Translations under genes and position numbers: made by a program | Shown here: positions 33,110-64,000 of the stretch, piece after piece | How the letters are laid out: each line of letters opens with the position of its first letter | Position numbering within the stretch: position 1 is the stretch's first letter | DNA from: Peptococcaceae bacterium 1109 | Lineage (GTDB): Bacteria > Bacillota > Limnochordia > Darwinibacteriales > Darwinibacteriaceae | NCBI GenBank assembly: GCA_001028815.1 | Contig: LDJB01000003.1 | Span: 110,850-174,849, forward strand | DNA length: 64,000 bases | Reading direction: 5' to 3' | The notes under the pieces: generated by a model | Databases searched by the model: none | What the model saw: only the letters and a program-made list of their open reading frames with translations | What the model was told of the DNA's origin: nothing

Positions 33110-33937
33110 TTAGCCTTTAATCCCCCCTATACTCAGACCTTGTTCAAAGTGTTTTTGAGCAAAGAAATACAGGATCAGGATGGGCAGCATGGAGATAAGC
33201 CCTCCAGCCATCAGCAAGTTGTACTGGTTGCCATACTGGGTGTTGAGCAAGCTTAAGCCCACTGGCAAGGTCATCTTGGCACGGTCGGTGAGGACAATTA
33301 GGGGCCAGAGATAGTCATTCCAAGCACCCATAAAGGTGATTACGCTTAAAGCTGATAAGACCGGTTTGCTTAAAGGAACAATGATCCGGACATAAATTGC
33401 GGCGTAACCGGCTCCGTCAATCAAAGCTGCTTCTGATAAAGCATCGGGGATGCCCCGCATGTTCTGGCGGAGGAGGAAGACAGCAAAGGCGTTGAAGACA
33501 GAAGGGGCTAAAATCCCCAGGAAGGAGTTGAGCAGGCCGAGGTAGCGCAGGACTAGGAAGTTGGGGATCATGGTTACCTGGCCCGGGATCATCATGGTCA
33601 TAAGAAACAATGTGAAGAGCGTATCTCGCCCCCTAAAGGGGATCTTGGCAAAGACATACGCGGCCATGGACGAGGACAGAACTACAATGGCTGTGGTGGC
33701 ACTAGCCACAAACAAGCTGTTAAAGATGGCCCTCCCAAAGGGAAACAGGGAGAACAACCGCTCATACGCATCGAAACTCACAGGGCTTGGAATCCACTGC
33801 ACCGGCAGGACCAACAATGCCCCACGGGCCTTAAGGGATGTGGATACCATCCAGAAGAACGGCATAAGGTTGAAGAACGCAATTATGCTGGCAAAGAGGT
33901 AAAACCCCAACCGCCGGATTTGCTCTCTACGACTCAT
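33110..33937 (-). CDS. carbohydrate ABC transporter permease (MalG/UgpE-like)
   Basis: 275 aa, six TM segments with the EAAxIDGA signature (EAALIDGAGY). Confidence 0.85.
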   Translation of the reverse strand: MSRREQIRRLGFYLFASIIAFFNLMPFFWMVSTSLKARGALLVLPVQWIPSPVSFDAYERLFSLFPFGRAIFNSLFVASATTAIVVLSSSMAAYVFAKIPFRGRDTLFTLFLMTMMIPGQVTMIPNFLVLRYLGLLNSFLGILAPSVFNAFAVFLLRQNMRGIPDALSEAALIDGAGYAAIYVRIIVPLSKPVLSALSVITFMGAWNDYLWPLIVLTDRAKMTLPVGLSLLNTQYGNQYNLLMAGGLISMLPILILYFFAQKHFEQGLSIGGIKG

Positions 33938-34796
33938 AGTGGACCCACCTTTTCTGGAGCTGGAGCTGGATCAACGTTGCCGCGAAGATAAACACGAACA
34001 GAATCCAGGAGTAGCTTGCAGCATAGCCCATCTTGTAATACCGGAATGCGTAGTTGTAAATCCGCTCCACAAACACCTGGGTGGCGCCGCCTGGGCCCCC
34101 TTCGGTCATTACCATAACTTGGGGAAAGAGCTGGAACGAGTTGATTACCGAAATTATGGTCACGAAGAACAGGGTGGGCGTGACCAAGGGGACAGTAATC
34201 CTGGTAAGCTTCTTAAACCAGTTGGCCCCGTCAATTTCCGCAGCCTCATAGTAGCTGGTGTCAATCCCCTGCAGCCCGGCGAGGATAATCAGGGCAAAGT
34301 AGCCCACGTCCTTCCACACACTTGCCAGAACAATCCCCGGCATGGCCCAGCTCTTGCTGTGCAGCCAGCTCGGGCCTGTGATTCCGGCCATGCCCAAGAT
34401 GGCATTGATCGCCCCGTACCTCGGATTGAGCAGCCACTTCCACAGAAGGGCCGCGGCAACCCACGACGTTAAGACAGGGACATAGTAGATAGTGCGGTAA
34501 AGGCCCACCCCTGGGTACTTGTTGTTAAGCAGCACCGCAACCAAGAGCGATGCCCCGAGGATCAAGGGGATATACAAGGCTATAAAGTACAAAGTGTTGC
34601 CCAACACCCGGGGGAACTCTTCGTTCTGGATAATATCCCTGAAGTTTTTCAGCCAGTGGAACTTGGGCGCGCCGCCGATCACATCCCACTCTGTCAAGCT
34701 GAGGTATAGTGATGTGCCAATGGGAATGATAGAGAACAGCAGCAGCCCCACCAAGCTGGGGAGGAGAAAGAAGAAGATGGTTAAGCGCCGGTTCAT
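33927..34796 (-). CDS. carbohydrate ABC transporter permease (MalF/UgpA-like); in this assembly read through from the upstream ROK regulator
   Basis: Starts MNRRLTIFFFLLPSLVGLLLF at ATG 34796 and contains EAAEIDGANWF. No stop codon separates it from the regulator frame; a C6 run at 34804-34809 sits at the junction. Confidence 0.75.
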   Translation of the reverse strand: MNRRLTIFFFLLPSLVGLLLFSIIPIGTSLYLSLTEWDVIGGAPKFHWLKNFRDIIQNEEFPRVLGNTLYFIALYIPLILGASLLVAVLLNNKYPGVGLYRTIYYVPVLTSWVAAALLWKWLLNPRYGAINAILGMAGITGPSWLHSKSWAMPGIVLASVWKDVGYFALIILAGLQGIDTSYYEAAEIDGANWFKKLTRITVPLVTPTLFFVTIISVINSFQLFPQVMVMTEGGPGGATQVFVERIYNYAFRYYKMGYAASYSWILFVFIFAATLIQLQLQKRWVHYES

Positions 34797-36026
34797 GCCT
34801 AATCCCCCCGGTTTAAAAATTGGTGCCCGGTAGATCTGGTTTACAACCAAGGCACAGGTTCCAATCAGCCACACATCCTCCCCGGTGCTGCACACCTTTA
34901 GCTGGACAGGCTGCTGTTTCTTGGCGAAAAAGTTAGTGGCTAGTTCCAGTTCTATGCCTCGCAAAAGGTGCTTGCCTCCGCGAATCCCCTCACCCCCCAA
35001 AATGATGGCTGCAGGGTTGAAAAGATTGACCAAGTTCTTCAGGCCAATCCCGAGGTTTTGGCCTTGTTTATAGATTATGCTCTGCGCGCAGCGGTCCCCC
35101 TGCTCCGCAGCTTCATACACATCATTGATGGTCAGGGAATCAGAATCCCCCAGGATAGTCGGGACTCCTAAGGCGATGTGGCGCTTTACTTCGCTTAAAG
35201 CAAAGTGGTCGGACGCGTACATTTCCAAGCATCCCCGCTGCCCGCAGTAACAAGGGGCTCCCTCATGCTGGATCACAAGGTGCCCAAACTCACCTGCCCC
35301 GCCGTGTTCCCCCCGGAAAACCTGGCCATCGATGACGATACCCAGGCCAACGCCTACCCCCACCGTCACCCCAAGGAAACTGCTGTGGTGGGGCACCATC
35401 CCTGTCCAAACTTGCGCGAGGGCAAAGGTGTTGGCATCGTTCTCCACGATTACAGGCACATCAAAGTGGCGGCTAACTGGGGTGAAGTCAAACTCATCCC
35501 AGGCTAAGATGGGACTGTATAAAACCTTGCCATGGGCCTGGTCCACCAAGCCTGAAACGGCGATGCCGATACCTACCAGCGGCGCACTGTTTACATCGCC
35601 TTCCAAAAGGCCGCTGATGTTATCTATAAGAAGCTGATTGAGGGCGGCACTATCTGCCTCAGGGGGAAGCTCTGCTGCAGCCTTCTGCTGAATCTTGCCT
35701 AAGAGGTTCATCCGGCTGAACAAAATGCGGGTTGGTTCGATTTTGATACCCACCACTGCGGCAACAGATCCGTTAAACTCCAGCATGGTTGGTTTGCGCC
35801 CACCACTAGACTCCCCTGCCCCCGTCTCCACAACCAGGCCATCATCCATAAGCTCATCGATGATATACGTGATAGTAGACAGCCCCAGCTCCGTATAGCG
35901 GGCAAGGTCCGCCCGGGACATGGGCCCGTGCAACCTCAAATGGTTGATCACTAAGATGCGGTTGTGCTCCTTAATTCGCTTCCGGTTGCCACCGCGCAGC
36001 TGCCTCACAATGCACCATCCGTCCAT
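34797..36026 (-). CDS. ROK-family transcriptional regulator (HTH + sugar-kinase-like domain), fused in frame to the downstream permease in this assembly
   Basis: HTH MSRADLARYTELGLSTITYIIDELMDDG and ROK zinc motif CYCGQRGCLEMY. With one C fewer in the C6 run the frame ends ...APIFKPGD-TAG and the permease ATG follows 2 nt later. Confidence 0.75.
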
Positions 36027-39818: not shown

Positions 39819-41060
39819 TTAGAAGTGGAGCCCCAAGGTAAGTGCCAGGCCTAAGCCTTTTCCTTCCTTGAGAACTAGCGAATGGAGGTTCTTTGCAGCA
39901 AGCTGCAGTTCGAATTGGTCAAAGTGCACTCCTACACCTGCATCCAGCATCAGCTGGGTTTTCTGCGAATAGCTGGCACCCACAGTGATGGGGATAAAAG
40001 GCAAAGGCCTGTACTCTACTTCCCCGCCAAACAGGGTGTCAGAAGTACCCGACTCATACCTGGTGTGGCGTACGCTCCCCCGCAGGGTAACCTGCTTGTC
40101 AAAGGCATACTCCAGCCCGAAGCGCACCCGCACAGGCAGCTTCCAGGTGATATCCTCCGCAGATCCTTCCTCTTCACCCAGCTCTTCCCCGTCGGCGAAC
40201 TCGAACTCAAACTCATTGGTCTCTGAGTTATAGCCCACCCGAGCGAGGTCCCATTCACCTTCTTTGCTCCAACGCCGCTCTTTCACATCGGTCCACACGA
40301 CTTGCCCGATGTTTTCCACACTCACATCTACCCCTAGGCGTGGGGTGATCTGCGCTGCTATGCCTGCATCAAAGGCCCAACCCTGCCCCTTCTGGGAGTG
40401 CAGGACGGATACGTCTAGATCCCGGCTTACTACCCGGGTGCCGCCATCGTCTTCGAAATAGGCGATGGTGCCGTTGAAGTCGGTTTCCCCGTAGGCGAGG
40501 CCGTAGAGGTACCGGCCGGAGATGCCCACTACTACGTCTTCAACGGGGAGATCCACGAACTGTGCTAAGGAGAAGGCTGCGGAGAGGCCGCCCTGAGCGT
40601 AGGCTCCCCCCTGCCCCTGGACTCCCGCGAGATCGATCTCAGCGTCCCCCGCTTCCAGCTCTTCCAAGGTTACGCCCTTGAAGGCCAGCTCAGCCAGTTC
40701 GCGTGGGATACGGGCTTCCGCTTCTCCCTGAGCGCCACCGTAAATGCGGAAGTTGTTGTACTGCACGTAGACGCCAGGATCGGTATAGACGTTTACCATC
40801 AACCCGTCCTCCGCGATGGACTGGGCTACTGCCAGACGTTGTTCCTCGGTCCAATGTTTGTTAAGCAAGCCCAGGAGTCGGTACCCAAAGGAGTTAGACG
40901 CCGTTTCGCCATAGAGGGAGATCCCTACAGCAAATCCACCGTCAGTGTCCACAGCCGCCGGGTTGTGGGCGAGAGCTGTACCGCCCAAGCCTGCCACAAC
41001 TAGAGCAATCAGAAGGACTAGGAATACTTGCCTTGATTTCACGGCCCTACCCCCATTCAT
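39819..41060 (-). CDS. outer-membrane beta-barrel protein (porin/FadL-like), signal peptide, C-terminal Phe
   Basis: Start ATG 41060 (MNGGRAVKSRQVFLVLLIALVVAGLGGTALA) forms an ATGA overlap with the upstream lipoprotein stop. Alternating hydrophobic strands (VRVRFGLEYAF, LMLDAGVGVHF) and the terminal LGLALTLGLHF ending in Phe are a classical OMP signature. Confidence 0.6.
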   Translation of the reverse strand: MNGGRAVKSRQVFLVLLIALVVAGLGGTALAHNPAAVDTDGGFAVGISLYGETASNSFGYRLLGLLNKHWTEEQRLAVAQSIAEDGLMVNVYTDPGVYVQYNNFRIYGGAQGEAEARIPRELAELAFKGVTLEELEAGDAEIDLAGVQGQGGAYAQGGLSAAFSLAQFVDLPVEDVVVGISGRYLYGLAYGETDFNGTIAYFEDDGGTRVVSRDLDVSVLHSQKGQGWAFDAGIAAQITPRLGVDVSVENIGQVVWTDVKERRWSKEGEWDLARVGYNSETNEFEFEFADGEELGEEEGSAEDITWKLPVRVRFGLEYAFDKQVTLRGSVRHTRYESGTSDTLFGGEVEYRPLPFIPITVGASYSQKTQLMLDAGVGVHFDQFELQLAAKNLHSLVLKEGKGLGLALTLGLHF

Positions 41061-43345
41061 TGATTTACCTTGATGAGCATGTCGGCCCAAATTCTGTACT
41101 GAAACTTATCCGCAGGTGCGATGGAAATGGGCATCTCACCAGTGCGCCCTTCTTTCGCCAGGGCGACACGCACCCGCATCTTGCCGCCTTGCTTGAGGAA
41201 GTCCTGCACATCTTCATCAACATCCAGTTCAAAGAGGGCGGTTTTCGCCTCAACGGCCCGGCCCGCATCGTTGGTCGCCGCGGCAGGAATGAGGCCTAGC
41301 TCGATGGTATAGGCATCGTCCCAGTTATCCTCATCGGGATCTGTGGACAGATCTAGCCATGCTTCAACGCCCAGCGGGATGCCGTTTGTAACCTCAGCAA
41401 ACAGGGCCGGCTTAGCGATAAACTCCAAACCCTTCTCTAGATCTGCCTGCTGGGCCACTTCCTGCTTGCCCAGGACCAAATCCTCGAACTCCTCATCGTA
41501 GTCGATGGTGAATGTGCTGCTGATTTCCACCTCCACAGTCACCTCAATGACTTCATCCAAATCGATGGCAATGGGCTCCTCAGGATCGCTCGCTACCTCA
41601 ATGCTTCCAGCCAGGGCGAGCTGCTGCGGTTCGGAGCCCAGGATGGCTAACCAATCCTCTGCCTCAGCGGTGTAAGTAGTGGTAATGCCATCGGGATCCG
41701 TTTCAGGATTGCTTAAGGTTACTGTGTATTCCTGGCTATCTGCCCCGATTACGGTCAGCTCCAGGCTGCTGAGATCAAGGGGAATCCCTGAGGGGTTCTT
41801 CAGGATGACCTGCATTTTCAGGCCGATGCCTGACAGCCAATCAAACAGCCCACTGATATCCCCCAGGCCTAGATCAAATTCCACAGGCTCGATCTCTAAG
41901 TCTTCCACGTCGATAGACTGAGGATCGATAAGCACTGTCGCCTCTGAAAGAACGATGCCCTCAAAGGACACGGTGGCAGTTACTGTGTCTCCGTCGAACT
42001 CGAGGGTGTCGCCCTCAACGTCAACCGTAACGGAGATCTCATCCTCAGCAGAGAGAACAACGCCTGCAAGATCAAAGACGTTATCATCGATTACGGTCAA
42101 GGCTTCCGAACCGCTGCTGCCCACAATCTCCACGTCAGTAACTTGCAGCGCTCCTTGGGTCAAGCCTTCGAAGGTGAAACGCAGTTCGCCTTCCTCAATT
42201 GTCAGGCTGAGGAAGCCGTTGTCTTCTGCCAGCTCATCCATGGCTTGAGTGATGGTTATGGAGTCAAAAGCACCTTGGCTGGTCACTGCCTTCACAACAT
42301 AATCAACCAAGGTCACATCCACCTGGCGTTCGTTCTCGGGCAGCGTGGATATAAGGCCTTGTTCAGGTTCGATTTCCCCTTGGATGGTGATGGTCATGCC
42401 ATTTTCCAGGGTAATTCCTGCCAAGCCGTCAACTCCTAAAATGTCATCGGCGCCCACCAGAACGCCCGTCAAGGAGACTTCTCCCTGAGCAGTCAGGTAG
42501 GGTTCTACCTCCAATGTTCCTGCATCGAAGGTTACGGAGTCAAAGGCCAGGCCGCTTAGGGAGACGTCGAACTCAAAGCCGATGGGCTCTTCAGTTTCCA
42601 ACCCTTCCACATGGGTGGCGACCAAGTCTCGAAGCTTCACCGTTATAATCAGGCTGCCCGCAGGTGGGTCCTCCCCGCCAATTATACTCAGCGTTAGAGG
42701 GCCTTCAATGGGGCCTGAGAGCGAAACAGCTTTCTCATCCGGCTGCTCTGGCAGGAGCGTTAGCAACGCCCAAGCTGCATCTGAGATGCCATCAACGGCC
42801 ATGGACTCTAGGGACAGAGATTCGGTGCCAACATACTCTAGCTCGATGACCAGGTTCCCCTCGGTGAGTTCTATTCTTTCAAAGGGAAGAACTATGTCCT
42901 CAGATACCTCCCATGGGGCAATTGCGGGAATCTCTATCTCTTCATCGTACAGCGTCATGTCATCCAGTTCTACAGCGATTTCCGGCAGGTCCAAGGTAAT
43001 GGAGCCCACATCATCCACAAACTCATCTTGGCCCACTTCTACTTCCACTTCAAATTCGGTTGGGAGAAGTTCTCCTGCTTCTGCCACTTCTCTTACTTCT
43101 ACTTGGACAGAATCGCTGAACTGCATTACCAGAGGTTCATCTTCATCGTAATCTTCTGGCAGGTAATCGCTGAGATACTCTTCGGCCAGTTCACCAACGG
43201 TAACCTCCCCGGCGATCAGGGGTACTTGCACGGGGACATCCCAGGATGGCCCGATGCGGCCGGTAACAGGATTCTTCAAGCAACCGGTGAGTGCCACTGT
43301 GAGGATTAGCAACGCTGTTAGCAAGATTTTCGTGTTTCGCACCAT
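41057..43345 (-). CDS. large highly acidic lipoprotein (762 aa, lipobox LTGC) of unknown function
   Basis: MVRNTKILLTALLILTVALTGC is a signal peptide with lipobox. The sequence is dominated by D/E-rich low-complexity stretches (EDYDEDEPL, TEFEVEVEVGQDEF, DYDEEFEDL). Translationally coupled to the OMP gene. Confidence 0.6.
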   Translation of the reverse strand: MVRNTKILLTALLILTVALTGCLKNPVTGRIGPSWDVPVQVPLIAGEVTVGELAEEYLSDYLPEDYDEDEPLVMQFSDSVQVEVREVAEAGELLPTEFEVEVEVGQDEFVDDVGSITLDLPEIAVELDDMTLYDEEIEIPAIAPWEVSEDIVLPFERIELTEGNLVIELEYVGTESLSLESMAVDGISDAAWALLTLLPEQPDEKAVSLSGPIEGPLTLSIIGGEDPPAGSLIITVKLRDLVATHVEGLETEEPIGFEFDVSLSGLAFDSVTFDAGTLEVEPYLTAQGEVSLTGVLVGADDILGVDGLAGITLENGMTITIQGEIEPEQGLISTLPENERQVDVTLVDYVVKAVTSQGAFDSITITQAMDELAEDNGFLSLTIEEGELRFTFEGLTQGALQVTDVEIVGSSGSEALTVIDDNVFDLAGVVLSAEDEISVTVDVEGDTLEFDGDTVTATVSFEGIVLSEATVLIDPQSIDVEDLEIEPVEFDLGLGDISGLFDWLSGIGLKMQVILKNPSGIPLDLSSLELTVIGADSQEYTVTLSNPETDPDGITTTYTAEAEDWLAILGSEPQQLALAGSIEVASDPEEPIAIDLDEVIEVTVEVEISSTFTIDYDEEFEDLVLGKQEVAQQADLEKGLEFIAKPALFAEVTNGIPLGVEAWLDLSTDPDEDNWDDAYTIELGLIPAAATNDAGRAVEAKTALFELDVDEDVQDFLKQGGKMRVRVALAKEGRTGEMPISIAPADKFQYRIWADMLIKVNQ

Positions 43346-44479: not shown

Positions 44480-45037
44480 ATGGAACACCGTGCAGTCTTC
44501 CTCGACCGAGATGGCGTCCTAAATCGATCTATCGGCAAGCGCCCCCCAAATACCCCTGAGGAGCTGGAAATGCTGCCAGGGGCCGCCAAGGCAGTAAAAG
44601 AGCTTAACGATGCAGGCTTCAAAGTGTTTGTTGTGACCAATCAAGGGGGAGTTGCCTTAGGGTATATGACCAAAGAAGACCTAGAAGCAATCCACGCCCG
44701 GCTCCAGGAGGAAGTGGCCCGGGAAGGAGGAGTCATTCACGAGATCGCAGCGTGCACTCACCGTCCATGGGCTAAGTGCAATTGCCGGAAACCAAAACCG
44801 GGCATGCTGATTCAGCTCGCCCGGCGACACAAGATCGATTTGGAAAACAGTTTTATGGTTGGCGACAGGGAGATGGATATCCTCGCTGGCCAAGGGGCCG
44901 GTACCACCACTATCCTAGTAGGTGATGGAGAAGAAGAAACGACCGCAGACTACGCAGTGGCAGACCTTGCGGAAGCCGCTAGGCTAATTATTGAGCAGCT
45001 CGGGCCACAGCTTCCACCGCAAGGAGGTAAGAGTTAA
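44480..45037 (+). CDS. gmhB: D-glycero-D-manno-heptose 1,7-bisphosphate phosphatase (HAD-IIIA, GmhB-like)
   Basis: FLDRDGVLN, the [18 protein letters not shown] zinc motif and [13 protein letters not shown] at 44480. The track ORF from 43973 is an over-extension antisense to the SDR gene. 3' end overlaps convergent aroQ by 50 bp. Confidence 0.7.
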
Positions 45038-45428
45038 CGCCAAACCCACTGATCTGGCCCATGCACACAGGGGCGATCACAGAGGTGTGGCGAAAGGGTT
45101 CCCGCGCGTAGATGTTGCTCATGTGAACCTCAACAGTCTTTAGCCCCACAGCGCCAATCGCGTCCCGCAGGGCATAGCTGTAGTGGGTTAGGGCCCCAGC
45201 GTTGATAATCAGCCACTCAAACCTGCCATGGGCTGCATGAATGCGGTCAATGATGGCTCCTTCATGGTTAGACTGGAAGAACTCTAGTTCTAAGCCCAGT
45301 TCTCCCCCGCGCTCTGCCATGAAAGCGTTTACTTCTTCCAAGGTCAAGTTCCCGTAAATCTGAGGTTCCCTTAAGCCCAAGAGGTTGAGGTTGGGCCCGT
45401 GAACTACCAAAACACGCTTTTTAGCCAT
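44988..45428 (-). CDS. aroQ: 3-dehydroquinate dehydratase, type II
   Basis: [22 protein letters not shown] ... [18 protein letters not shown] is the canonical type II DHQase sequence. Confidence 0.9.
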
Positions 45429-46263
45429 TTCCTTTCAACTCCTGCAGTGATGCTAAGACTTGCCAGATGGCTTCCTCTGGAACGGGACGCCCCAGCCAGA
45501 ACTCCTGGGCTGCAGCAGCTTGGAAGACTAACATGGGGAGCCCGTTGAGGACCTTTAGGCCTAGTTCCTGCCCTTGGCGGAGAAGCCTGGTCTGGGGCGG
45601 GTTGTAGATCAGGTCGTAAACACACGTGACGCCCTTGAGATCCTCCAGATTGATTGGGCGCTCTCCTTGAGGCGCGCCCATCCCAACGGGGGTGGCATTT
45701 ACCACCACATCATATGTTCCCTGGGAAAGATTAACCCAGGGAAGGGCCGCGATCTCAAGGTGCGGGAAGCGGGACGTAATTTCTTCTGCCAGCCCCTCTG
45801 CAGTGGACAAAGTGCGGCTGCCAATGGTTAGGCTGCAGCCCATCTCCGCGAGTTCGTAGGCTGCCACTCGAGCCGCTCCCCCCGCCCCCAAGAGGAGTAC
45901 CGCTGAACCTGCAAGTTCCCAGCCCAAAAGCTGCAAGCCTGCAGTAAACCCCGCCCCATCCGTATTGTGGCCTATAAGCTTCCCTGCCTCGCACTTCACC
46001 GTGTTCACTGCTCCATACCGCTCGGCGGCGGGAGTAAGCTCGTCCACCAGATCCATGACTGCCCGTTTGTGGGGAATGGTAATGTTGAACCCCCGGAAGT
46101 TGCCCCGGAGGATATCCACTGCCCCCTCGAGCTGCCTAGGGGTAATATGCAGGGCGATGTAGGCGCTGCCCTCAAAGCCCTGCATCTGAAACAGCTGAGT
46201 GTGGATTATCGGTGACCAACTCTGGGCGATGGGATCACCTACCACCCCGTACAGATTCTGCAC
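45421..46263 (-). CDS. aroE: shikimate dehydrogenase
   Basis: [17 protein letters not shown] ... GFNITIPHK ... [12 protein letters not shown]. Confidence 0.9.
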
Positions 46264-46276
46264 AGAAGCACCTCTT

Positions 46277-48160
46277 TCATCCTTGCTCAGTGAGCACTGA
46301 AATGATCTCCCTTAGAGTTTGGCTAGCATCGCCCTCAACAAACAAACAGTGAGGCATGTTGTAAAGGGCATTGGGCACACCTGCATAGCCAGGGGATCTG
46401 TCAAGGTTGCAAACCACCACATGCCTGGCATCGCTCACACTTAAGATAGGCATTCCATAGATGGGAGTCCCTTCTGCCGTTTGCGCGGCGGGATTAACCA
46501 CGTCATTGGCCCCCACAACTAATACCACATCCGTACTGCTAAACTCAGGATTGATTTCATCCAGTGTGTAGAGCATGTCGTAAGGTATGTCAACCTCCGC
46601 AAGAAGGACATTCATATGGCCTGGCATTCGCCCTGCCACAGGGTGGATCCCGATTTTAACCTGGATGCCGCGGCCTTGCAGGACATCCACCAGCTCCCTC
46701 ACTTGGTGCTGAGCTGCAGCGAGGGCCATGCCGTAGCCAGGGACGATTATCACTTGCTCTGCTTGGGAAAGGAACTTCCCAGCCTCAGCGGAGGGCCTTC
46801 CGCCCGCCACTTCCTTTTGAGGCTGTCTAAGGAAACCCAAGACCTTCTCCAAAGTCTCTTTGGCATCGCCTAAAAGGAGGCTCACATGGGGCTCTTCGTA
46901 AAGGGAATTAGGAACTCCTGCATAGCCAGGCTGGGTGTCGTAGTTAAGCACCATGACGTGCTTGGCCAGATCCGCCCGGATAATGGGCATCCCATAGATG
47001 GGAGTGCCTGGTTGAGCCATAGCCGCAGGGTTCACCACATCATTTGCCCCTACCACGATGGCAAGATCGGCCCCAGGAAGGAACTCATTGATGGCCTCCA
47101 TATCGTGTAGCTTCTCGTAAGGAACATCCACCTCAGCAAGGAGGACATTCATATGTCCCGGCATGCGCCCTGCCACGGGATGAATGCCCACCTTCACCTC
47201 TTTATGGCCCGCCTCAAGCAGATCGATGAGCTCCTTCACCTGAAGCTGGGCTTGAGCTACGGCCATGCCGTAACCAGGAATAATGGCCACCCGCTCAGCT
47301 TCAGCCAGGGCCTGCTCCCACTGGCAAGCAGAAGCTGCCTGGGTGGGGGCTTCCAGCCCTGATTCCCGAGAAGGGGTACCTGTCACAGTAGTGCGCCCCG
47401 TCAAAATGCTCAAGAGGCTGCGGTTCATTGCCCTGCACATGATCTGCGTTAAGATAAACCCAGAGGCCCCAACAATCCCGCCCACTGCCACCAGAAGCGG
47501 ATTCTTAAGTGGAAAGCCCGCGATCGCTCCCGCGACGCCCGACAGAGAGTTCAACAGAGAGATGGTAATGGGCATGTCTGCTCCGCCCACCCGCATGGTA
47601 AGCAGGACTCCAAAGACCAGTGCGAGGATGAGCTGTACGAACGCTGCGGTGCGCCCTGCAAAGAAAAGTGAAGCCAAGGATAGCACCGTCACCACCGTAA
47701 CCACTGCGGCGTGCCGGGGTAGTTCCTGGGGCCTTTGGCTTACTACGCCATGGAGCTTGGCTGCTGCCAGCGCACTGCCGCCAAACGTTAGGGCTCCTAC
47801 TGCAATTGTAAGCCCCGTGGTAAAATGGGCAAAGGCCCCCACCGCTTCCCCTTGGAGGGCAAGGACCAAGCCCACCAGTGCCGAGGCACCGCCCCCAAGC
47901 CCGTTTAGGGCTGCCACCATCTGGGGCATCTGGATCATCAGAACCTTTACCGCGGCAACCCAGCCCAGGGCTGTCCCTACCCCGAGCCCCGCCCAAAGGA
48001 GGGGATAGGTAAGGATGCCTGCTTCAAGCAAAGCAACAGCGATGGCTGCTAGCATCGCGCCCGCGCCTAAGGCGTTTCCCAGAACTGCAGTCTTGGGGGA
48101 ACTCATTAACTTAATCCCGTAGAGCATCAAGGCAGCGAAGCACAGGAGAAGGTAGTTCAC
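46277..48160 (-). CDS. pntB: NAD(P) transhydrogenase subunit beta with tandemly duplicated dIII (NADP(H)-binding) domain
   Basis: 627 aa instead of ~460: a TM domain (~250 aa) is followed by two ~155-aa copies of the dIII domain (IIPGYGMAVAQAQ...GRMPGHMNVLLAEV...VVGANDVVNPAA... and IVPGYGMALAAAQ...GRMPGHMNVLLAEV...VVGANDVVNPAA...). Copies lie at about 46841-47305 and 46301-46765. Confidence 0.85.
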   Translation of the reverse strand: MNYLLLCFAALMLYGIKLMSSPKTAVLGNALGAGAMLAAIAVALLEAGILTYPLLWAGLGVGTALGWVAAVKVLMIQMPQMVAALNGLGGGASALVGLVLALQGEAVGAFAHFTTGLTIAVGALTFGGSALAAAKLHGVVSQRPQELPRHAAVVTVVTVLSLASLFFAGRTAAFVQLILALVFGVLLTMRVGGADMPITISLLNSLSGVAGAIAGFPLKNPLLVAVGGIVGASGFILTQIMCRAMNRSLLSILTGRTTVTGTPSRESGLEAPTQAASACQWEQALAEAERVAIIPGYGMAVAQAQLQVKELIDLLEAGHKEVKVGIHPVAGRMPGHMNVLLAEVDVPYEKLHDMEAINEFLPGADLAIVVGANDVVNPAAMAQPGTPIYGMPIIRADLAKHVMVLNYDTQPGYAGVPNSLYEEPHVSLLLGDAKETLEKVLGFLRQPQKEVAGGRPSAEAGKFLSQAEQVIIVPGYGMALAAAQHQVRELVDVLQGRGIQVKIGIHPVAGRMPGHMNVLLAEVDIPYDMLYTLDEINPEFSSTDVVLVVGANDVVNPAAQTAEGTPIYGMPILSVSDARHVVVCNLDRSPGYAGVPNALYNMPHCLFVEGDASQTLREIISVLTEQG

Positions 48161-48444
48161 TCGCTACCACCCCCGCTTCTAAACATCTTGAGCATACGGT
48201 GGGTTACAAGAAAGCCCGCCACAACATTGATGGTGGCAAAGACAATTGCCAAGAAGCCTAGGAAGCGCCGGCCAGTGGTGATTGCCCCAGCCGCAGCCAA
48301 GAGTGCCCCTACTACTGTAATGCCCGACAGGGCGTTCATGCCAGACATAAGGGGCGTGTGCAAAAGGCTGGGCACTTCACTGATTACCCTGTAACCCAGT
48401 AACGTTGCCACGACTAGGATGGCTATGAGCAATAAGTAGCTCAC
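48157..48444 (-). CDS. pntAB: NAD(P) transhydrogenase subunit alpha part 2 (membrane segment)
   Basis: 95 aa with three hydrophobic helices. Overlaps both neighbours by 4 bp. Confidence 0.8.
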   Translation of the reverse strand: MSYLLLIAILVVATLLGYRVISEVPSLLHTPLMSGMNALSGITVVGALLAAAGAITTGRRFLGFLAIVFATINVVAGFLVTHRMLKMFRSGGGSE

Positions 48445-49631
48445 ACAGCTCCCTCCCCGTGAGCCCGCATGGCTTCGAGGGTGCCTGAGTGGACAATTTG
48501 CCCGTTGTGCGTCACCAGGCTGGCGGCAATAATCTCATCCGCGAGGTTCAGTTCCACCTTCCCATCGTGAACCAGGTGGCTCACGAAGTGGAGCACGTTC
48601 TTAGCGAAGAGCATGGTGGCGCTCACCGGCACAGTGCCCGGAATGTTCTGAGTCCCATCGATCACCACGCCACCGTGCTCAATAATCTCTCCTGCCCTGG
48701 CCAAGGCGCAGTTGCCCCCTTGGTCAATGGAAATGTCCACAATGACCGAACCAGGGCGCATGGTTTCCACCATCTCCTGAGTGACAAGGACAGGTGCCTC
48801 ATGGCCTGGAACTAAGGCAGAAAGGATCACGATATCGGCCTCGGAAACCGCGGGAGCTATTGCTTCCTGCTCCTTCTTTAGCCACTCCTCAGGCAAAAGC
48901 TTGGCGTAGCCACCTTCCCCGATGGCTAGTTCGCTTGGAATGGGGAGCTCAATAATCCTGGCTCCCAGGCTCTTGGCCTGTTCTGCCGCATCCGGCCGTA
49001 CATCCGCGGCTTTTGTCACTGCACCTAAGCGCTTCGCGGTGGCAATGGCCTGCAGCCCAGCAACTCCAGCTCCGATCACCACCACCTGCGCAGGCTGCAC
49101 CATACCCACAGCGGTGCCCAGCATGGGCAAGAATTTAGGTAGGCGGTTAGCTGCGGAGATCACCGCCTTGTAGCCTGCCACAGTACTCATGGAGGTCAAT
49201 GCATCCATCGTCTGTGCTCTGGAAATCCGAGGGATGGAGTCTAGGGTAAGGGCAATGACCCCTCGGCGTGCAAGCTCCTGCACGATGCCATGATTTGCAG
49301 GAGCCGCGGGGTGAAGGAAGGTGATGAGTACTTGACCTTCCCTGAGAAGCTCTACTTCACTAACGCCCAGTTCCACGTTGAACGCAGGCTGCTTCACTTT
49401 CAGAACAACCTGAGCTGCTTGGACGAGCTCCCTCACGTCGGAGCAGATCTCCGCCCCCACCGCCCGATACTCATCGTCGCTGATGTAGGCGCCTAACCCT
49501 GCGCCCTTCTGCACGAGGACCCGGGCACCGTCCTTAACTAACTGGGCTGCAGTTTCGGGAGTCACCGCCACACGGCGTTCCCCCGCTAAGATTTCCTTTG
49601 GTATCCCAATCGTCAGGCCTGTAAATTTCAT
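48441..49631 (-). CDS. pntAA: NAD(P) transhydrogenase subunit alpha part 1 (dI, alanine dehydrogenase-like)
   Basis: MKFTGLTIGIPKEILAGERRVAVTPE plus the NAD-binding VVIGAGVAGLQAIATAKRLGA. True ATG at 49631 with GGAGGGAAGGAC immediately upstream. Confidence 0.85.
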   Translation of the reverse strand: MKFTGLTIGIPKEILAGERRVAVTPETAAQLVKDGARVLVQKGAGLGAYISDDEYRAVGAEICSDVRELVQAAQVVLKVKQPAFNVELGVSEVELLREGQVLITFLHPAAPANHGIVQELARRGVIALTLDSIPRISRAQTMDALTSMSTVAGYKAVISAANRLPKFLPMLGTAVGMVQPAQVVVIGAGVAGLQAIATAKRLGAVTKAADVRPDAAEQAKSLGARIIELPIPSELAIGEGGYAKLLPEEWLKKEQEAIAPAVSEADIVILSALVPGHEAPVLVTQEMVETMRPGSVIVDISIDQGGNCALARAGEIIEHGGVVIDGTQNIPGTVPVSATMLFAKNVLHFVSHLVHDGKVELNLADEIIAASLVTHNGQIVHSGTLEAMRAHGEGAV

Positions 49632-49789: not shown

Positions 49790-50764
49790 TTACACCAGCC
49801 TTCGAATAAGGGCATCGGTGTCTCCAGGGAGAAAGTCAATCAGGGGGATTTGGATCATGGTATAGGCCCCAGGAGCCTGTTTCATGCTTGCCCGTGCCGC
49901 AGAGACCATGACCTGGCTGGTCAGGGCAGGGTTGTTGATCCGCATTTCCCACCTAAACTGCTGATTGTGGGTCTCACCAGAAACCCCTTTACGCTCCATC
50001 ACCACTCCGTGCCCAACGTCCCTTAGGGCAGCCGCATTTTCCACCACAAAGACGTGGGTTTCGTCATGGGCAAAATAAGGATCGGCCTTGATTCCCGCCT
50101 CTACCTTAGCTGGATCAGCCTCCGGCTCCAGGGTGACGTAAACCATGCGCCGGTGAATCCCAGTTCCCAGGGGTATGGTAAGTGACAGGGCGTCCCTCAC
50201 CCCATCTACGTCCTTAGCCGCAACGCTGTGCCCCATACTCATGCCTGGGCCGAAGTTTGTGTAGGTAATCCCCTTTGGCGCCATGAGCTCTAGCAAGGCC
50301 CGGAGGATGGAGTCAGTACCCGGGTCCCAGCCGGCAGAGATCACTGCCACAGCGTTGTGTTCCTTCGCCGCAGCATGGAGCCTCAGGCGCACATCTGCTA
50401 AATCTTGATGGATGTCGTAACTGTCCACTGTGTTGATCCCCTGGGCTAAAATCTCCTCCGCGAGCTTGGGCACAACCCGCGTGGGAGTGCAGAGCAGGGC
50501 AACGTCCACACAGCCCAACTCTTGCAGGGAACTCACCACAGGTGTCCCTGCCAGTTCTGGGGGAAGCTCGCCCTTGAGGGAGGCGGAGCGCCGTACCACA
50601 CCTACCAGTTCCATGTCTGGGGCTGCTCTCACAGCCTCCACTGCGTACCTTCCGATGTTGCCATAGCCTACAACTGCTGCTTTTATCACAGCAAACACCT
50701 CGCTCTCAGGTTGCCTGTTTAGTATTCCGCATACCCCTGCCCCATACCTGCTAGCGAGTTCCAA
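49790..50764 (-). CDS. ddh: meso-diaminopimelate D-dehydrogenase
   Basis: [11 protein letters not shown] ... [11 protein letters not shown] ... [11 protein letters not shown] ... [10 protein letters not shown], in register with Corynebacterium/Symbiobacterium Ddh. Real start may lie ~25 codons inside the listed ORF. Confidence 0.8.
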
Positions 50765-61097: not shown

Positions 61098-61683
61098 TTC
61101 TCCTTTCTGGCCTCTCCAGTCCCTCCGCCACTAGCTGAAGCGCCTTTGGATAGAGGCGGTGTTCCGCTTCCAGGATCCGCTCTGAGAGGCTCTCCAATGT
61201 ATCATGGGGGAGTACAGGAACTGCCTCCTGCGAGATAATGGGCCCACTGTCCACCCCTTCGTCCACGAAGTGGACAGTGCAGCCGCTCACCTTCACCCCA
61301 TAGGCTAGGGCTTGGCTCTGGGCATTAAGCCCAGGGAAAGCGGGGAGGAGTGAAGGATGGATGTTAAGGATGGGGCAGCCCAGTGCTTGAATAAACCCCG
61401 GGCTCAGAATTCGCAGATAACCCGCTAAGGCCACAATGTCTACTTCGAGCTCCTGCAGCCACCGGAGGATAGCTGCCTCGTGGGCCCTGCGGTTCTCGTA
61501 CTGCCGGGGCGGAAAAACGGCTGCGGGGATCCCAGCCGCTTCTGCCCTGGCTAAGGCTTGGGCTTCAGGCCGGTCTGAGGCCACCCCCACAATTTCCAAG
61601 GTGAGGGCCCCAGATCGCACTGCCTCAATGATTGCCTGGAGATTGCTGCCCCGCCCGGAAGCAAGGACTGCGAGGCGCTTCAT
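61084..61683 (-). CDS. purN: phosphoribosylglycinamide formyltransferase
   Basis: [15 protein letters not shown], the HxSLLP motif ([10 protein letters not shown]) and the conserved Asp region. Confidence 0.9.
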
Positions 61684-62690
61684 TTGTACCTCACTCCCTC
61701 CCCTGGCTCCACAGTGCCCAGCACCACTGGGGACTCCCCGGCCTCAGTCAGCGCTGCCCAAGCCGCGGGGCGCTCCTCTGGGCTTACAACCACCGCATAA
61801 CCGATCCCCATGTTGAAGGTGCGATACATCTCAGCGTCTGGGACCTGCCCGAGTTTTTGTATGAGGCGGAAAATGGGGGGCACGTCCCAGGCAGGCTGGA
61901 TAGTAAGGCCAAGCCCTGGAGGGAGTATCCGGGCGATGTTCTCTATAAGGCCCCCGCCGGTGATGTGGGCCATCCCTTTAACCCTCGCCTTACCTAAGAG
62001 CCCAAGGATGGGTTTGACGTATATCCGGGTGGGCCGCAGCAGAGTTTCACCTAAGGGTTCGCCCAGTTCCCTTACTACTGCCCTCAAGTCCTGCCCAGCA
62101 AACACCCGCCGTACCAAGGAGTACCCGTTGCTGTGCAATCCGCTTGAGGAAAGGCCGATCACCACATCCCCCGCAGCGATGCTGCTCCCATCGATAATAT
62201 CCTGGCGGTTAACCACACCCACAGCGAAGCCCGCCACATCATACTCTCCCGGCCGGTAAAAGCCAGGCATTTCCGCTGTTTCGCCCCCTAGAAGGGCGCA
62301 TCCCGCTTCCTTACAGCCTTGAGCCACCCCCTGCACCACTGCCGCGGCTTCGTCAGGGTTCAGCTTACCCACTGCCAGGTAATCTAAGAAAAACAGCGGC
62401 TCGGCCCCGTGGGTGAGGATGTCGTTGACACACATGGCCACAGCGTCGATACCAATGGTGTGGTGCTTGTTTAGGGAAAAGGCCAGCTTGAGTTTTGTCC
62501 CAACCCCATCTGCCCCAGAAACGAGCACTGGGTCAGGGTACTTTCTCAAGTCAAGCTGGAACATGCCGCCAAAACCGCCGATACCTCCCACCAACCCAGG
62601 GCGGGCCGTCTCCCTAACCAGAGGCTTGATAAGCTCCACAACCTTGTTCCCTGCGTCAATATCCACCCCGCTCTCCCGGTAGGTAAGGCT
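61680..62690 (-). CDS. purM: phosphoribosylformylglycinamidine cyclo-ligase (AIR synthetase) domain, read in frame with purF (no start or stop codon at the junction)
   Basis: [22 protein letters not shown] ... is the PurM N-terminus. It follows the PurF C-terminal [10 protein letters not shown] motif directly in the same 754-aa ORF. Confidence 0.8.
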
Positions 62691-64000
62691 CTTGGCCTCT
62701 TGGGCAGGGCACTGCCCCGTAAAGCATGCCATGCACACGGGCCTGTCCCCTAAAGCTCGCCGCAGGCCTCCTTCCGAGAGGTAGTGAAGGGAATCTGCAC
62801 CCACGAGCTCCCGGATCTCCTCCACGTCCAGGCGGCTGGCGATAAGGGTTTCCCGCTCGGTGGTATCCATCCCGTAAGGGCAGGGGTGGCGCACTGGGGG
62901 CGAGCTTACTAGGAGGTGTACCTCTGCAGCGCCAGCCCTTTTCACCAGCTCGATTAACTTGGAGCTGGTGGTTCCCCGCACAATGGAGTCGTCCACCATC
63001 ACTACCCTCTTCCCCTTGAGGAAACGTACATTGGCGTTGAGCTTGATCTTCACGGCCACTTCCCGCATGGCTTGGGTGGGTTGGATGAAGGTTCGCCCCA
63101 CGTAGCGGTTCTTCATTAGCCCTTCAGCAAAGGGTATTCCCGAGGCCTCCGCGTAGCCCAGGGCTGCCGCGGTACCTGAATCAGGAACGGGAATCACCAC
63201 GTCCGCCCCGATGGGGTGCTCCCGAAAAAGCTCCCTTCCCATTGCCGCCCGGCTTTCTCCCACGTTGAGTCCATCGATGGAGCTGTCAGGGCGGGCGAAA
63301 TAGACGTACTCAAAGGAGCACGGTGCCAAGGTGTGTGCCTGGGGCCCGCGGTAGGAGGTGAGCCCCGCTGGCCCGATGGCCACCACTTCTCCAGGAGCTA
63401 CGTCTCGGACAAACTCTGCTCCGATGGTATCCAGTGCACAGCTTTCAGAAGCTAGGCAGAAGAACTCTCCCAGCTTGCCGATGCACAGCGGCCTGATCCC
63501 ATGTGGGTCTCGCATGCCCACTACATAATCTTCCGTCATGAACACAATCCCATAGCCTCCCTGGAGCCTGCCCATGACATGCAGCGCGGCCTTAGGCATA
63601 CTCTCCCCAGTGCTTTGGGCCAAGAGGTGAATAACCAGCTCTCCATCACAGGTTGATTGAAAGACTGTCCCCCATCCCGCGAGCTCTGACCGGAGCTGAT
63701 CGCCATTTGCCAGCCTGCCGTTCATGGCCAGAGCAAGCATCCCCCGGCCGCTGTACACCACTAAGGGCTGGATGTTGGCCAGCTGAAATGACTCCCGAGT
63801 GGAATAGCGCACGTGGCCGAGGGCCATTACGGGGCGAGAACCGGGGAAGCTGGCCAAGGCCTGTAACTGATCGCCGCTAAACACCTCACTGACTAAACCC
63901 CCGAGCCTTGTGCACCTGAATTTGACGCCCATCGGACACAGCAATCCCGGCGCTTTCCTGCCCCCGGTGCTGGAGGGCGTAGAGCCCGTAGTAGGTGAGG
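62691..64000 (-). CDS. purF: amidophosphoribosyltransferase; 5' end beyond window, frameshifted near 63898-63908, 3' end fused to purM
   Basis: The frame entering from 64000 reads [37 protein letters not shown]-stop (stop at 63886-63888). The adjacent frame continues GLVSEVF ... through the PRTase and CMACFTG motifs. A C5 run at 63898-63902 sits at the junction. Confidence 0.75.

What the first reader, a model, noticed from the sequence alone, without database searches (positions are those of the whole stretch)
46277..48160. PntB with a tandem duplication of the dIII NADP(H)-binding domain
The beta subunit is ~170 aa longer than usual because the whole dIII domain occurs twice in tandem (copies ~65% identical, at 46841-47305 and 46301-46765). 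Each copy keeps GYGMA, GRMPGHMNVLLAEV and VGANDVVNPAA. The complex normally has one dIII per alpha-beta protomer, so a duplicated domain could alter stoichiometry or regulation of hydride transfer. It could also be an assembly duplication artefact.
Basis: seen in the sequence. Interest (0 to 1): 0.6.

Follow-up and report, generated by a model that had tools for sequence, protein, structure and literature searches.

The report
Transhydrogenase beta subunit with two heads
The membrane enzyme that swaps reducing power between NADH and NADPH here carries two intact copies of its NADP(H)-binding head instead of one; this is a real, selected feature, and it belongs to a widespread group of anaerobe enzymes with one to five heads that I found described nowhere in the searchable literature.

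Summary
ORF 46277-48160 (-) encodes a 627-aa PntB made of one membrane domain dII and two complete dIII domains (59-60% aa identity, 63% nt identity, period 537 nt).

It is not an assembly artefact:
- The copies are too diverged for a repeat collapse or expansion.
- The identical protein occurs on 4 contigs from at least 2 sequencing runs.
- Each copy has its own orthologues in other genomes.
- Copy-to-copy dN/dS is 0.19.

Public data hold many PntB proteins with 2, 3, 4 and at least 5 tandem dIII, from Porphyromonas, Desulfovibrio, Dysgonomonas, Treponema, Alkalicella and Bacillota MAGs. Syntenic relatives of the window carry 1, 2 and 3 copies.

All of these belong to a clade in which the KRS motif of the NADP(H) site (E. 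coli K424-R425-S426) is replaced by N-x-D, in every copy. In my sample, multi-copy forms are nearly confined to that clade (10/35 against 1/67 cluster representatives).

All seven multi-dIII operons I read are the three-subunit type with a free dI.

My reading is inferred, not shown: several catalytic heads share one ion channel and hold the untethered dI dimer. Reviews call the three-domain architecture universal, and I found no description of multi-dIII forms.

Verdict: a new variant of a known kind, interest about 0.7.

The parts
48441..49631 (-). pntAA: the free soluble NAD(H)-binding domain dI (alpha1), 396 aa
   Evidence: Pfam AlaDh_PNT_N and AlaDh_PNT_C. Aligns with R. rubrum dI 1F8G at E = 2.5e-93, keeping PRISRAQ..D..S and GxGxxG...D. 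The gene start follows the call on L001.
48157..48444 (-). pntAB: alpha2, three transmembrane helices of dII, 95 aa
   Evidence: Pfam PNTB_4TM at 2.6e-31. Aligns with T. thermophilus alpha2 4O9P_C and the E. coli alpha C-terminus. Ser sits at the position of T. thermophilus His42.
46277..48160 (-). pntB: beta subunit of 627 aa, made of dII plus two tandem dIII domains
   Evidence: The GTG start overlaps the pntAB stop (GTGA) and a GGGGGTGG lies upstream.
47390..48160 (-). dII membrane domain of beta, aa 1-257, nine predicted helices
   Evidence: AF2 helices. Foldseek rmsd 1.8 A and TM 0.91 to T. thermophilus dII 5UNI_B. GGADMP and NS.SG are conserved. Asn sits at the position of E. coli His91.
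47324..47389 (-). Flexible linker between dII and dIII, aa 258-279
   Evidence: pLDDT below 50 in the AF2 model. Sequence checked.
46823..47323 (-). dIII copy 1, the 'inner' type, aa 280-446
   Evidence: Second Pfam PNTB stretch and BLASTP. All conserved dIII residues are present. Orthologous to copies 1 and 2 of the 3-dIII proteins P0034 and P0116, 66-71% aa. Absent from the syntenic single-dIII relative P0121.
46937..46945 (-). Loop E of copy 1: N406-Y407-D408 in place of the KRS motif
   Evidence: Role of KRS from PMC9529548.
46796..46822 (-). Short flexible linker between the two dIII copies, aa 447-455 (PQKEVAGGR)
   Evidence: pLDDT below 50 for aa 447-454. Sequence checked.
46280..46795 (-). 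dIII copy 2, the 'terminal' type, aa 456-627
   Evidence: Aligns with E. coli dIII 9L76 residues 297-459 and T. thermophilus dIII 4J16_C at E = 1e-53. All conserved residues are present. Orthologous to the only dIII of P0121 (78% aa) and to copy 3 of P0034 and P0116 (65%).
46400..46408 (-). Loop E of copy 2: N585-L586-D587 in place of the KRS motif
49790..50689 (-). Upstream neighbour: meso-diaminopimelate dehydrogenase homologue; conserved synteny
   Evidence: Pfam DAPDH_C and GFO_IDH_MocA. Same position in L001, L002 and L003.
44988..46263 (-). Downstream neighbours: aroE (45421-46263) and aroQ (44988-45428); conserved synteny
   Evidence: Pfam Shikimate_dh_N and SDH_C. DHquinase_II in the gene calls of L001 and L002.

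Best explanation
This is a genuine gene for the beta subunit of a three-subunit, membrane-bound NAD(P) transhydrogenase (alpha1 = free dI, alpha2, beta). Its polypeptide carries one membrane domain dII followed by two complete nucleotide-binding heads (dIII) joined by a short flexible linker. The duplication is old. Both head types have been kept under purifying selection, and the number of heads has gone up and down in related lineages (1, 2, 3, 4, at least 5). Shown: both heads keep every conserved residue used for nucleotide binding and hydride transfer except the KRS triad, which the whole clade has replaced by N-x-D. Inferred mechanism: each head binds its nucleotide, meets a dI dimer for hydride transfer while detached, and takes turns with its sister head docking on the single dII channel, where nucleotide exchange and ion gating occur. 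Because dI is a separate soluble protein in these enzymes, extra heads also keep dI dimers captured at the membrane, and may recruit more than one. There would then be more hydride-transfer heads working per channel without changing the one-ion-per-hydride chemistry. The conserved neighbours (DAP dehydrogenase, aroE, aroQ) suggest the job is NADPH supply for biosynthesis.
For: Real and intact. Independent assemblies. Selection: copy-to-copy dN/dS is 0.185 in the window and 0.03-0.23 in five other multi-dIII genes. The inner and terminal types are each conserved between the window and the P0034 lineage (69-71% and 65%) at least as well as dII (59%). Recurrence: 107 proteins with 4 dIII, 11 with 3 and 1 with 5 among the best 120 hits. 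At 50% clustering, 12 clusters have two copies, 3 have three and 1 has four among 150 representatives. In most lineages the copies of one protein are each other's closest relatives, which points to many independent expansions or to concerted evolution. Four copies occur in the complete chromosome of Alkalicella caledoniensis, CP058559.1. Copy number changes within one syntenic neighbourhood: L002 has 1, the window 2, L003 has 3. All seven multi-dIII operons I read have a separate dI and alpha2. Flexible linkers. Mechanistic frame, from PMC13635403: dIII is open when attached to dII and occluded when detached; (dI)2 engages one dIII at a time; three-subunit enzymes have no covalent tie to (dI)2. 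Isolated dIII binds a dI dimer with Kd below 60 nM (PMC5742237). dI is canonical.
Against: There are no biochemical data for any member of this clade. The KRS motif, part of the NADP(H) site and of its specificity (PMC9529548), is replaced by N-x-D in both heads, so affinity or even specificity for NADP(H) may differ. The inter-head linker is only about 9 disordered residues, against 22 for the dII-dIII linker, so access of the distal head to dII is uncertain. The AF2 domain arrangement is unreliable (pTM 0.48). The link with three-subunit operons is not discriminating, because 72 of 80 canonical loci in my sample are also three-subunit. Conserved binding motifs would also be kept by a head that only binds nucleotide or dI. 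Most close relatives by dII work with one head (105 of 120).
Confidence: 0.5

Rival explanations
1. Only one head is catalytic. The other is an accessory module: a tether that holds the free dI dimer at the membrane, or a sensor or buffer that binds NADP(H) in the occluded state and regulates the working head.
For: Only copy 1 is joined to dII by a long linker of 22 disordered residues; the copy 1 to copy 2 linker has about 9. The terminal copy is consistently the most divergent in 4-copy proteins, and the inner and terminal types in the window lineage differ at fixed positions (312, 412, 414, 427, 444) and at GDAK versus GDAS/GDAA. In other lineages the second dIII has clearly degenerated (P0253, P0255), so a non-catalytic extra dIII does exist. 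Isolated dIII holds NADP(H) tightly and binds dI tightly (PMC5742237; PMC13635403).
Against: In the window both copies keep all 34 checked conserved residues, including the equivalents of Y315, R350, H354, D392 and G430-V434. Both types evolve as slowly as dII. In many lineages the copies are nearly identical (99% nt in Alkalicella), which argues for equivalent heads. The copy furthest from dII is the orthologue of the sole, necessarily catalytic, dIII of the single-head relative.
Confidence: 0.27
2. The N-x-D clade has changed what the head binds or how tightly. Loss of the 2'-phosphate clamp would make NADP(H) release fast, or shift specificity, so heads could turn over without docking on dII. 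Extra heads would then simply multiply loosely coupled or uncoupled catalytic sites.
For: K424 and R425 are invariant in 169 canonical dIII domains. N424 and D426 are invariant in 650 domains of this clade, with Y/L/F at 425. No conserved compensating basic residue was found, and window copy 1 has none at 427/428. Multi-copy forms are nearly confined to this clade: 10/35 against 1/67 cluster representatives, Fisher p = 7e-5.
Against: dII is highly conserved in the clade (invariant GGADMP, S201, L202-L203, S205, G208), which argues for a working channel. The neighbours are NADPH-using biosynthetic enzymes. dI keeps its NAD(H) signature, so an NAD(H)-specific dIII would give no net reaction. 79% of N-x-D domains have K or R at 427/428, which might replace the clamp.
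Confidence: 0.18
3. Assembly or sequencing artefact: a falsely expanded repeat.
For: Tandem repeats can be mis-assembled. The window comes from a metagenome-type assembly, and the identical protein is seen only in Logan assemblies.
Against: The copies are 63% identical in DNA with 40% amino-acid differences, and the substitution pattern is one of purifying selection. The same protein is on 4 contigs from at least 2 runs. Each copy has distinct orthologues elsewhere. GC content is uniform across the gene. Isolate and closed genomes carry the same architecture.
Confidence: 0.01
4. A neutral, recent duplication on its way to decay.
For: Copy number is labile: the syntenic relative P0121 has only one copy.
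Against: The duplication predates the split between the window and P0034 lineages. dS between the copies is saturated (1.8) while dN is 0.34. There is no frameshift, stop or motif loss.
Confidence: 0.02

Closest known systems
Thermus thermophilus three-subunit transhydrogenase (alpha1, alpha2, beta; PDB 4O9U, 4O9P, 5UNI, 4J16)
   Same: Same subunit organisation: free dI, short alpha2, and a beta made of dII plus dIII. Best PDB sequence match (E = 4.4e-95). dII superposes at 1.8 A. Asn at the E. coli His91 position.
   Different: It has one dIII per beta, loop E reads K-R-G, and the channel His is at alpha2-42, where the window has Ser.
Escherichia coli PntAB (PDB 9L76, 9UUY; mechanism in PMC13635403)
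   Same: Homologous dII and dIII. Each window dIII copy aligns over residues 297-459 with all conserved positions but three. The attach/detach cycle provides the mechanistic frame.
   Different: It is a two-subunit enzyme with dI covalently joined to dII, one dIII, the KRS motif and beta-His91.
Protozoan single-chain beta-alpha transhydrogenases (dIIb-dIII-linker-dI-dIIa; Paratrimastix and Plasmodium types; PMC7614955, PMC13635403)
   Same: The C-terminus of dIII is followed by a flexible linker and another soluble nucleotide-binding domain. This shows that a domain appended to dIII is tolerated.
   Different: The appended domain is dI, not a second dIII, and there is still one dIII per protomer.
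Database-only PntB proteins with 3-4 dIII, annotated simply as 'NAD(P)(+) transhydrogenase (Re/Si-specific) subunit beta' (Porphyromonas cangingivalis, Desulfovibrio intestinalis, Dysgonomonas massiliensis, Alkalicella caledoniensis, Bacillota MAGs)
   Same: Same clade (N-x-D loop E), same three-subunit operon, same tandem dIII units with 20-30 residues between domain models.
   Different: They carry three or four, mostly near-identical, copies. The window has two old, differentiated copies (59% aa).

Membership tests
Proton-translocating NAD(P) transhydrogenase beta subunit (PntB, Pfam PF02233) | Matches the PNTB profile above the gathering score | tested here: met
   751 bits against a cutoff of 31.7, in two stretches.
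Proton-translocating NAD(P) transhydrogenase beta subunit (PntB, Pfam PF02233) | NCBIfam equivalog NF006974 (Re/Si-specific subunit beta) reached | tested here: not met
   512 bits against a cutoff of 689. It is a homologue but does not qualify as an equivalog of the E. coli-type protein.
Proton-translocating NAD(P) transhydrogenase beta subunit (PntB, Pfam PF02233) | Membrane domain dII with the transhydrogenase fold and conserved GGADMP and N-S-x-S-G helices | tested here: met
   AF2 model compared with 5UNI_B: rmsd 1.8 A, TM 0.91. Conserved columns.
Proton-translocating NAD(P) transhydrogenase beta subunit (PntB, Pfam PF02233) | Operon partners supplying dI and the remaining dII helices | tested here: met
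   pntAA and pntAB lie immediately upstream with overlapping stop and start codons.
Proton-translocating NAD(P) transhydrogenase beta subunit (PntB, Pfam PF02233) | Exactly one dIII per beta (the three-domain architecture called universal in PMC5742237) | tested here: not met
   There are two complete dIII domains.
Proton-translocating NAD(P) transhydrogenase beta subunit (PntB, Pfam PF02233) | dIII fingerprint residues (E. coli G314-Y315-G316, H345-N356, G389-P396, G408-P410, G430-V434, N436) | tested here: met
   All are present in both copies.
Proton-translocating NAD(P) transhydrogenase beta subunit (PntB, Pfam PF02233) | KRS motif of loop E (E. coli K424-R425-S426) at the NADP(H) site | tested here: not met
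   N-Y-D in copy 1 and N-L-D in copy 2. K-R is invariant in 169 canonical domains and N..D is invariant in 650 domains of this clade.
Proton-translocating NAD(P) transhydrogenase beta subunit (PntB, Pfam PF02233) | Central channel histidine (E. coli beta-His91 or T. thermophilus alpha2-His42) | tested here: inconclusive
   The window has Asn and Ser at the two positions. However, 57 of 80 canonical KR-type loci show the same combination, so these two positions do not define the family.
Proton-translocating NAD(P) transhydrogenase beta subunit (PntB, Pfam PF02233) | [quoted passage not shown] | not testable with these tools
   Needs enzymology in membranes or proteoliposomes.
Multi-dIII PntB of the N-x-D clade (a grouping defined here, not a described family) | Two or more tandem dIII units after one dII | tested here: met
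Multi-dIII PntB of the N-x-D clade (a grouping defined here, not a described family) | N-x-D and P-G-Y in loop E of every copy, with Tyr at the E. coli F439 position | tested here: met
Multi-dIII PntB of the N-x-D clade (a grouping defined here, not a described family) | Three-subunit operon with a free dI | tested here: met
   The window plus six other loci. This is not discriminating.

The most novel reading that the evidence does not exclude
Transhydrogenases of a large anaerobe clade are multi-headed machines. Two to five NADP(H)-carrying heads strung on one beta chain would time-share a single ion channel and hold one or several free dI dimers. This would be possible because the clade rebuilt the 2'-phosphate clamp (KRS to N-x-D), changing how tightly, or which, nucleotide is held. 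It would be a new stoichiometry and kinetic regime for an enzyme whose three-domain, one-head-per-protomer design is regarded as universal. Nature would also have supplied 1-, 2-, 3- and 4-head versions with which to test the dIII swivel and binding-change mechanism.
Probability: 0.3. Interest if true: 0.8.

Novelty: new variant of a known kind. Interest (0 to 1): 0.7.

Why it matters
Current models of the transhydrogenase depend on exactly two dIII heads per dimer alternating between the channel and the dI dimer. Enzymes with 4, 6, 8 or more heads per dimer challenge the generality of that picture. They also offer natural constructs for asking which step limits turnover, whether a head must be next to dII to exchange nucleotide, and how a free dI dimer is retained. 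The same clade lacks the KRS clamp thought to give NADP(H) specificity, so its cofactor chemistry needs testing. Members occur in human-associated anaerobes (Porphyromonas, Desulfovibrio, Dysgonomonas, Treponema), where redox balance matters for physiology. For annotation, these proteins are all filed as ordinary 'subunit beta', which hides the architecture.

Tried and rejected
1. A missing channel histidine as a special feature. The window has Asn at E. coli beta-91 and Ser at T. thermophilus alpha2-42, but 57 of 80 canonical loci share this combination and no alternative conserved His was found in beta dII. I dropped it as a distinguishing trait.

2. The genome-contig scan with the whole protein. 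It returned mostly canonical single-dIII PntB. It added only two multi-copy loci (L006 Treponema, L007 Desulfobacterales) and did not find the window's organism.

3. Tandem Repeats Finder. Its longest period of 500 is below the 537-nt unit, so it found nothing relevant.

4. Rfam on the whole window: no hits.

5. AF2 of the whole beta subunit, to see which head docks on dII. With pTM 0.48 the inter-domain geometry is not trustworthy. I used only the per-domain folds and the disordered linkers.

6. Looking up the dII-dIII contact residues in the 2026 E. coli paper, to compare the two copies. They are not given in the text, so a surface-specific comparison was not possible.

7. Literature searches. 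No paper describes multiple dIII or the N-x-D clade. This is absence within an open-access library, not proof of novelty.

8. Three-subunit organisation as a predictor of multi-dIII. It holds in 7 of 7 operons, but the background rate is 90%, so it is not significant.
Full report
**1. The observation**

ORF 46277-48160 on the minus strand encodes 627 aa. Its GTG start overlaps the stop codon of the upstream gene, and a G-rich Shine-Dalgarno-like stretch precedes it. Pfam PNTB matches in two stretches at 751 bits.

Direct DNA repeats lie in register at a spacing of 537 nt. Both copies carry PGYGMA, AGRMPGHMNVLLAEV and VVGANDVVNPAA.

The AlphaFold2 model has mean pLDDT 79. It gives nine membrane helices, then the same helix and strand order twice, with disordered segments at aa 258-279 and 447-454. 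Foldseek superposes dII on T. thermophilus dII at 1.8 A and dIII on solved dIII structures at about 2-3.5 A. No solved chain covers both dIII.

**2. Not an artefact, not decaying**

- Over the whole domain the copies are 63% identical in DNA and 59% in protein. dN is 0.34, dS is 1.8 (saturated) and dN/dS is 0.185.
- GC content is even across the gene.
- The identical 627-aa protein is a cluster of 13 sequences on 4 contigs, read in at least two runs, with the same neighbours.
- Of 37 conserved dIII positions checked against E. coli numbering, 34 are kept in both copies. These include the equivalents of Y315, H345, R350, H354, D392 and G430-V434.

**3. The operon**

Upstream lie pntAB (95 aa, PNTB_4TM) and pntAA (396 aa, dI). 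dI is canonical: it aligns with R. rubrum dI at E = 2.5e-93 and keeps PRISRAQ..D..S and the Asp after GxGxxG. This is therefore a three-subunit enzyme of the T. thermophilus type, with a free soluble dI.

The flanking genes are a diaminopimelate dehydrogenase homologue, aroE and aroQ. On general knowledge these are NADPH-using or aromatic and lysine biosynthetic enzymes.

**4. Relatives: the duplication is one case of a general phenomenon**

- The best 120 database hits to the whole protein are dominated by PntB of about 1000-1030 aa and about 830-840 aa. An HMM of dIII counts 107 proteins with four domains, 11 with three and one with five (N-terminally truncated, so at least five). The window protein itself has two.
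- Named sources include Porphyromonas cangingivalis and P. bennonis, Desulfovibrio intestinalis, Dysgonomonas massiliensis, Alkalicella caledoniensis and many Bacillota and Bacteroidales MAGs. Treponema and Desulfobacterales MAGs carry two-copy genes.
- In the library clustered at 50% identity, 12 of the best 150 representatives have two dIII, 3 have three and 1 has four.
- Four copies sit in the complete chromosome of Alkalicella caledoniensis, and copies 1-3 are 99% identical in DNA.
- Copy-to-copy dN/dS is 0.03-0.23 in all six genes examined.

**5. History in the window's own lineage**

Searching with dII alone finds single-dIII proteins as the nearest relatives. The closest is P0121 (470 aa; dII 76% identical on global alignment). 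It lies in the same gene order as the window: GNAT, DAP dehydrogenase, pntAA, pntAB, pntB, aroE, aroQ, SDR. A three-dIII gene (P0034, 837 aa; NCBI GCA_041936725.1) sits in a similar neighbourhood.

Trees and pairwise identities show two paralogue types:

| Comparison | aa identity |
|---|---|
| Window copy 2 vs the only dIII of P0121 | 78% |
| Window copy 2 vs copy 3 of P0034 / P0116 | 65% |
| Window copy 1 vs copies 1-2 of P0034 / P0116 | 66-71% |
| Cross-type comparisons | 55-60% |
| dII, window vs P0034 | 59% |

The duplication therefore predates the split of these lineages, and both types have been kept as well as dII. The P0034 lineage added a third copy, and the P0121 lineage lacks the inner copy (alignment). 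Elsewhere the copies within one protein are usually each other's closest relatives, which points to many independent expansions or to concerted evolution.

**6.

Where E. coli has K424-R425-S426, the window has N-Y-D (copy 1) and N-L-D (copy 2). That KRS motif is part of the NADP(H) site, and loops D and E define specificity for NADP(H) (PMC9529548).

Every copy of the multi-dIII hits printed shows N-x-D or, in one copy of P0009, N-M-N. So do about 105 single-dIII relatives. Over 827 dIII domains:

- K and R are invariant in 169 canonical domains.
- N424 and D426 are invariant in 650 domains of this clade, with Y/L/F at 425, Pro at 429 and Tyr at 439.
- Only 7 domains are intermediate.

The motif is thus a property of the clade, not of the duplication. 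Multi-copy forms are nevertheless concentrated in this clade: 10 of 35 full-length N-x-D cluster representatives against 1 of 67 KR representatives, Fisher p = 7e-5. The single KR case has a degenerate second copy. I cannot tell from sequence whether NADP(H) is still bound, or how tightly.

**7. A lead that did not hold**

The window lacks His at both classical channel positions, E. coli beta-91 and T. thermophilus alpha2-42. So do 57 of 80 canonical loci retrieved from reference genomes. This is not a special feature.

**8. How it most likely works**

Published structures give this cycle. dIII docked on dII is open for nucleotide exchange. Protonation plus NADP+ binding releases it. The detached head is occluded and meets the dI dimer for hydride transfer. 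The dI dimer engages only one head at a time. Three-subunit enzymes have no covalent tie to the dI dimer (PMC13635403). Isolated dIII binds a dI dimer with Kd below 60 nM (PMC5742237).

Given two intact heads on flexible linkers, and a free dI in all seven multi-dIII operons read, I infer two things. The heads take turns at the one channel. While detached, they keep dI dimers captured, so more hydride-transfer events run per channel.

This is inference. What has been shown is intactness, selection, recurrence and linker flexibility.

The main rival is that one head is accessory, acting as a tether or sensor. The short inter-head linker, the consistent divergence of the terminal copy and the degenerate second copies in other lineages favour it. 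A second rival is that the N-x-D change loosens or alters nucleotide binding, so that heads act without dII.

**9. Comparison with what is known, and novelty**

Reviews describe the three-domain architecture as universally conserved, with variation only in how the polypeptides are split or fused (PMC5742237; PMC7614955). Seven full-text searches found no description of multiple dIII or of the N-x-D clade.

The sequences themselves are public and annotated as ordinary beta subunits. The protein passes the Pfam test, but it fails the NCBIfam equivalog cutoff (512 against 689 bits), the one-dIII rule and the KRS motif. I class it as a new variant of a known kind.

**10. Source organism**

The window's GH94 phosphorylase is identical to a protein on an NCBI contig of 98 kb. 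It is 74-77% identical to proteins of 'Firmicutes bacterium' and 'Limnochordia bacterium' MAGs. The source is probably an uncultured Bacillota; this is inference.

Noticed in passing
window 61680-63944 (-): One 754-aa ORF carries both PurF-type domains (GATase_7, Pribosyltran) and PurM-type domains (AIRS, AIRS_C). It is either a fused purF-purM gene or two genes joined by the mechanical ORF listing.
   Followed up: no
window 33927-36026 (-): A 699-aa ORF combines a ROK-family domain with an ABC-transporter permease domain (BPD_transp_1). This may be a read-through of two adjacent genes in the same frame.
   Followed up: no
window 25055-27280 (-): A 741-aa ORF has metallo-beta-lactamase, beta-CASP and RMMBL domains (RNase J-like) followed by a serine beta-lactamase-family domain at the C-terminus.
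   Followed up: no
window 41057-43345 (-): A 762-aa, extremely acidic (Asp/Glu-rich) protein with a lipoprotein-like N-terminus (…LTGC…). No family search was run on it.
   Followed up: no
window 46400-46408 and 46937-46945 (-); P0001-P0240: Loop E reads N-x-D instead of KRS in a whole clade of PntB, single-dIII members included (for example Tepidanaerobacter acetatoxydans). N424 and D426 are invariant in 650 domains, with coupled changes F439Y, S404T and T444V. The cofactor consequences are unknown.
   Followed up: partly
window 48157-48444 and 47890-47910 (-); L006-L085: No His at either classical channel position (E. coli beta-91, T. thermophilus alpha2-42) in the window. The same holds in 57 of 80 canonical three-subunit PntAB loci. 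Where the protonatable group sits in all these enzymes is not obvious from sequence.
   Followed up: partly
L002 3936-5348 (P0121): The single-dIII syntenic relative has an unusually long (about 45 aa), acidic, low-complexity dII-dIII linker exactly where the window has copy 1. It may be a remnant of the lost inner copy.
   Followed up: no
P0253 (659 aa), P0255 (664 aa): These two-dIII proteins have a clearly degenerate second copy, for example HPYAGRILGHIPFLLSE and GYGAGRAQ. P0255 is a KRS-type enzyme. Extra dIII domains can therefore become non-catalytic in some lineages.
   Followed up: partly
L087 4001-7033 (Alkalicella caledoniensis CP058559.1); L086, L005, L088: In four-copy genes the last copy is always the most divergent. 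In L087, copies 1-3 are 99% identical in DNA and copy 4 is 92-93% identical to them. This suggests ongoing gene conversion or unequal recombination among inner units.
   Followed up: partly
window 47570-47600 (-), beta aa 188-197: Arg190 in T-M-R-V-G-G-A-D-M-P is invariant in the 39 aligned N-x-D-clade proteins. T. thermophilus has Pro and E. coli has Ser at this position, next to the conserved Asp (E. coli D213) at the cytoplasmic mouth of the channel.
   Followed up: no
window 44988-46263 and 49790-50689; L002, L003: The pnt operon is embedded between a DAP dehydrogenase homologue and shikimate-pathway genes. This arrangement is conserved in relatives with 1, 2 and 3 dIII copies, which hints at a role in NADPH supply for amino-acid biosynthesis.
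   Followed up: partly
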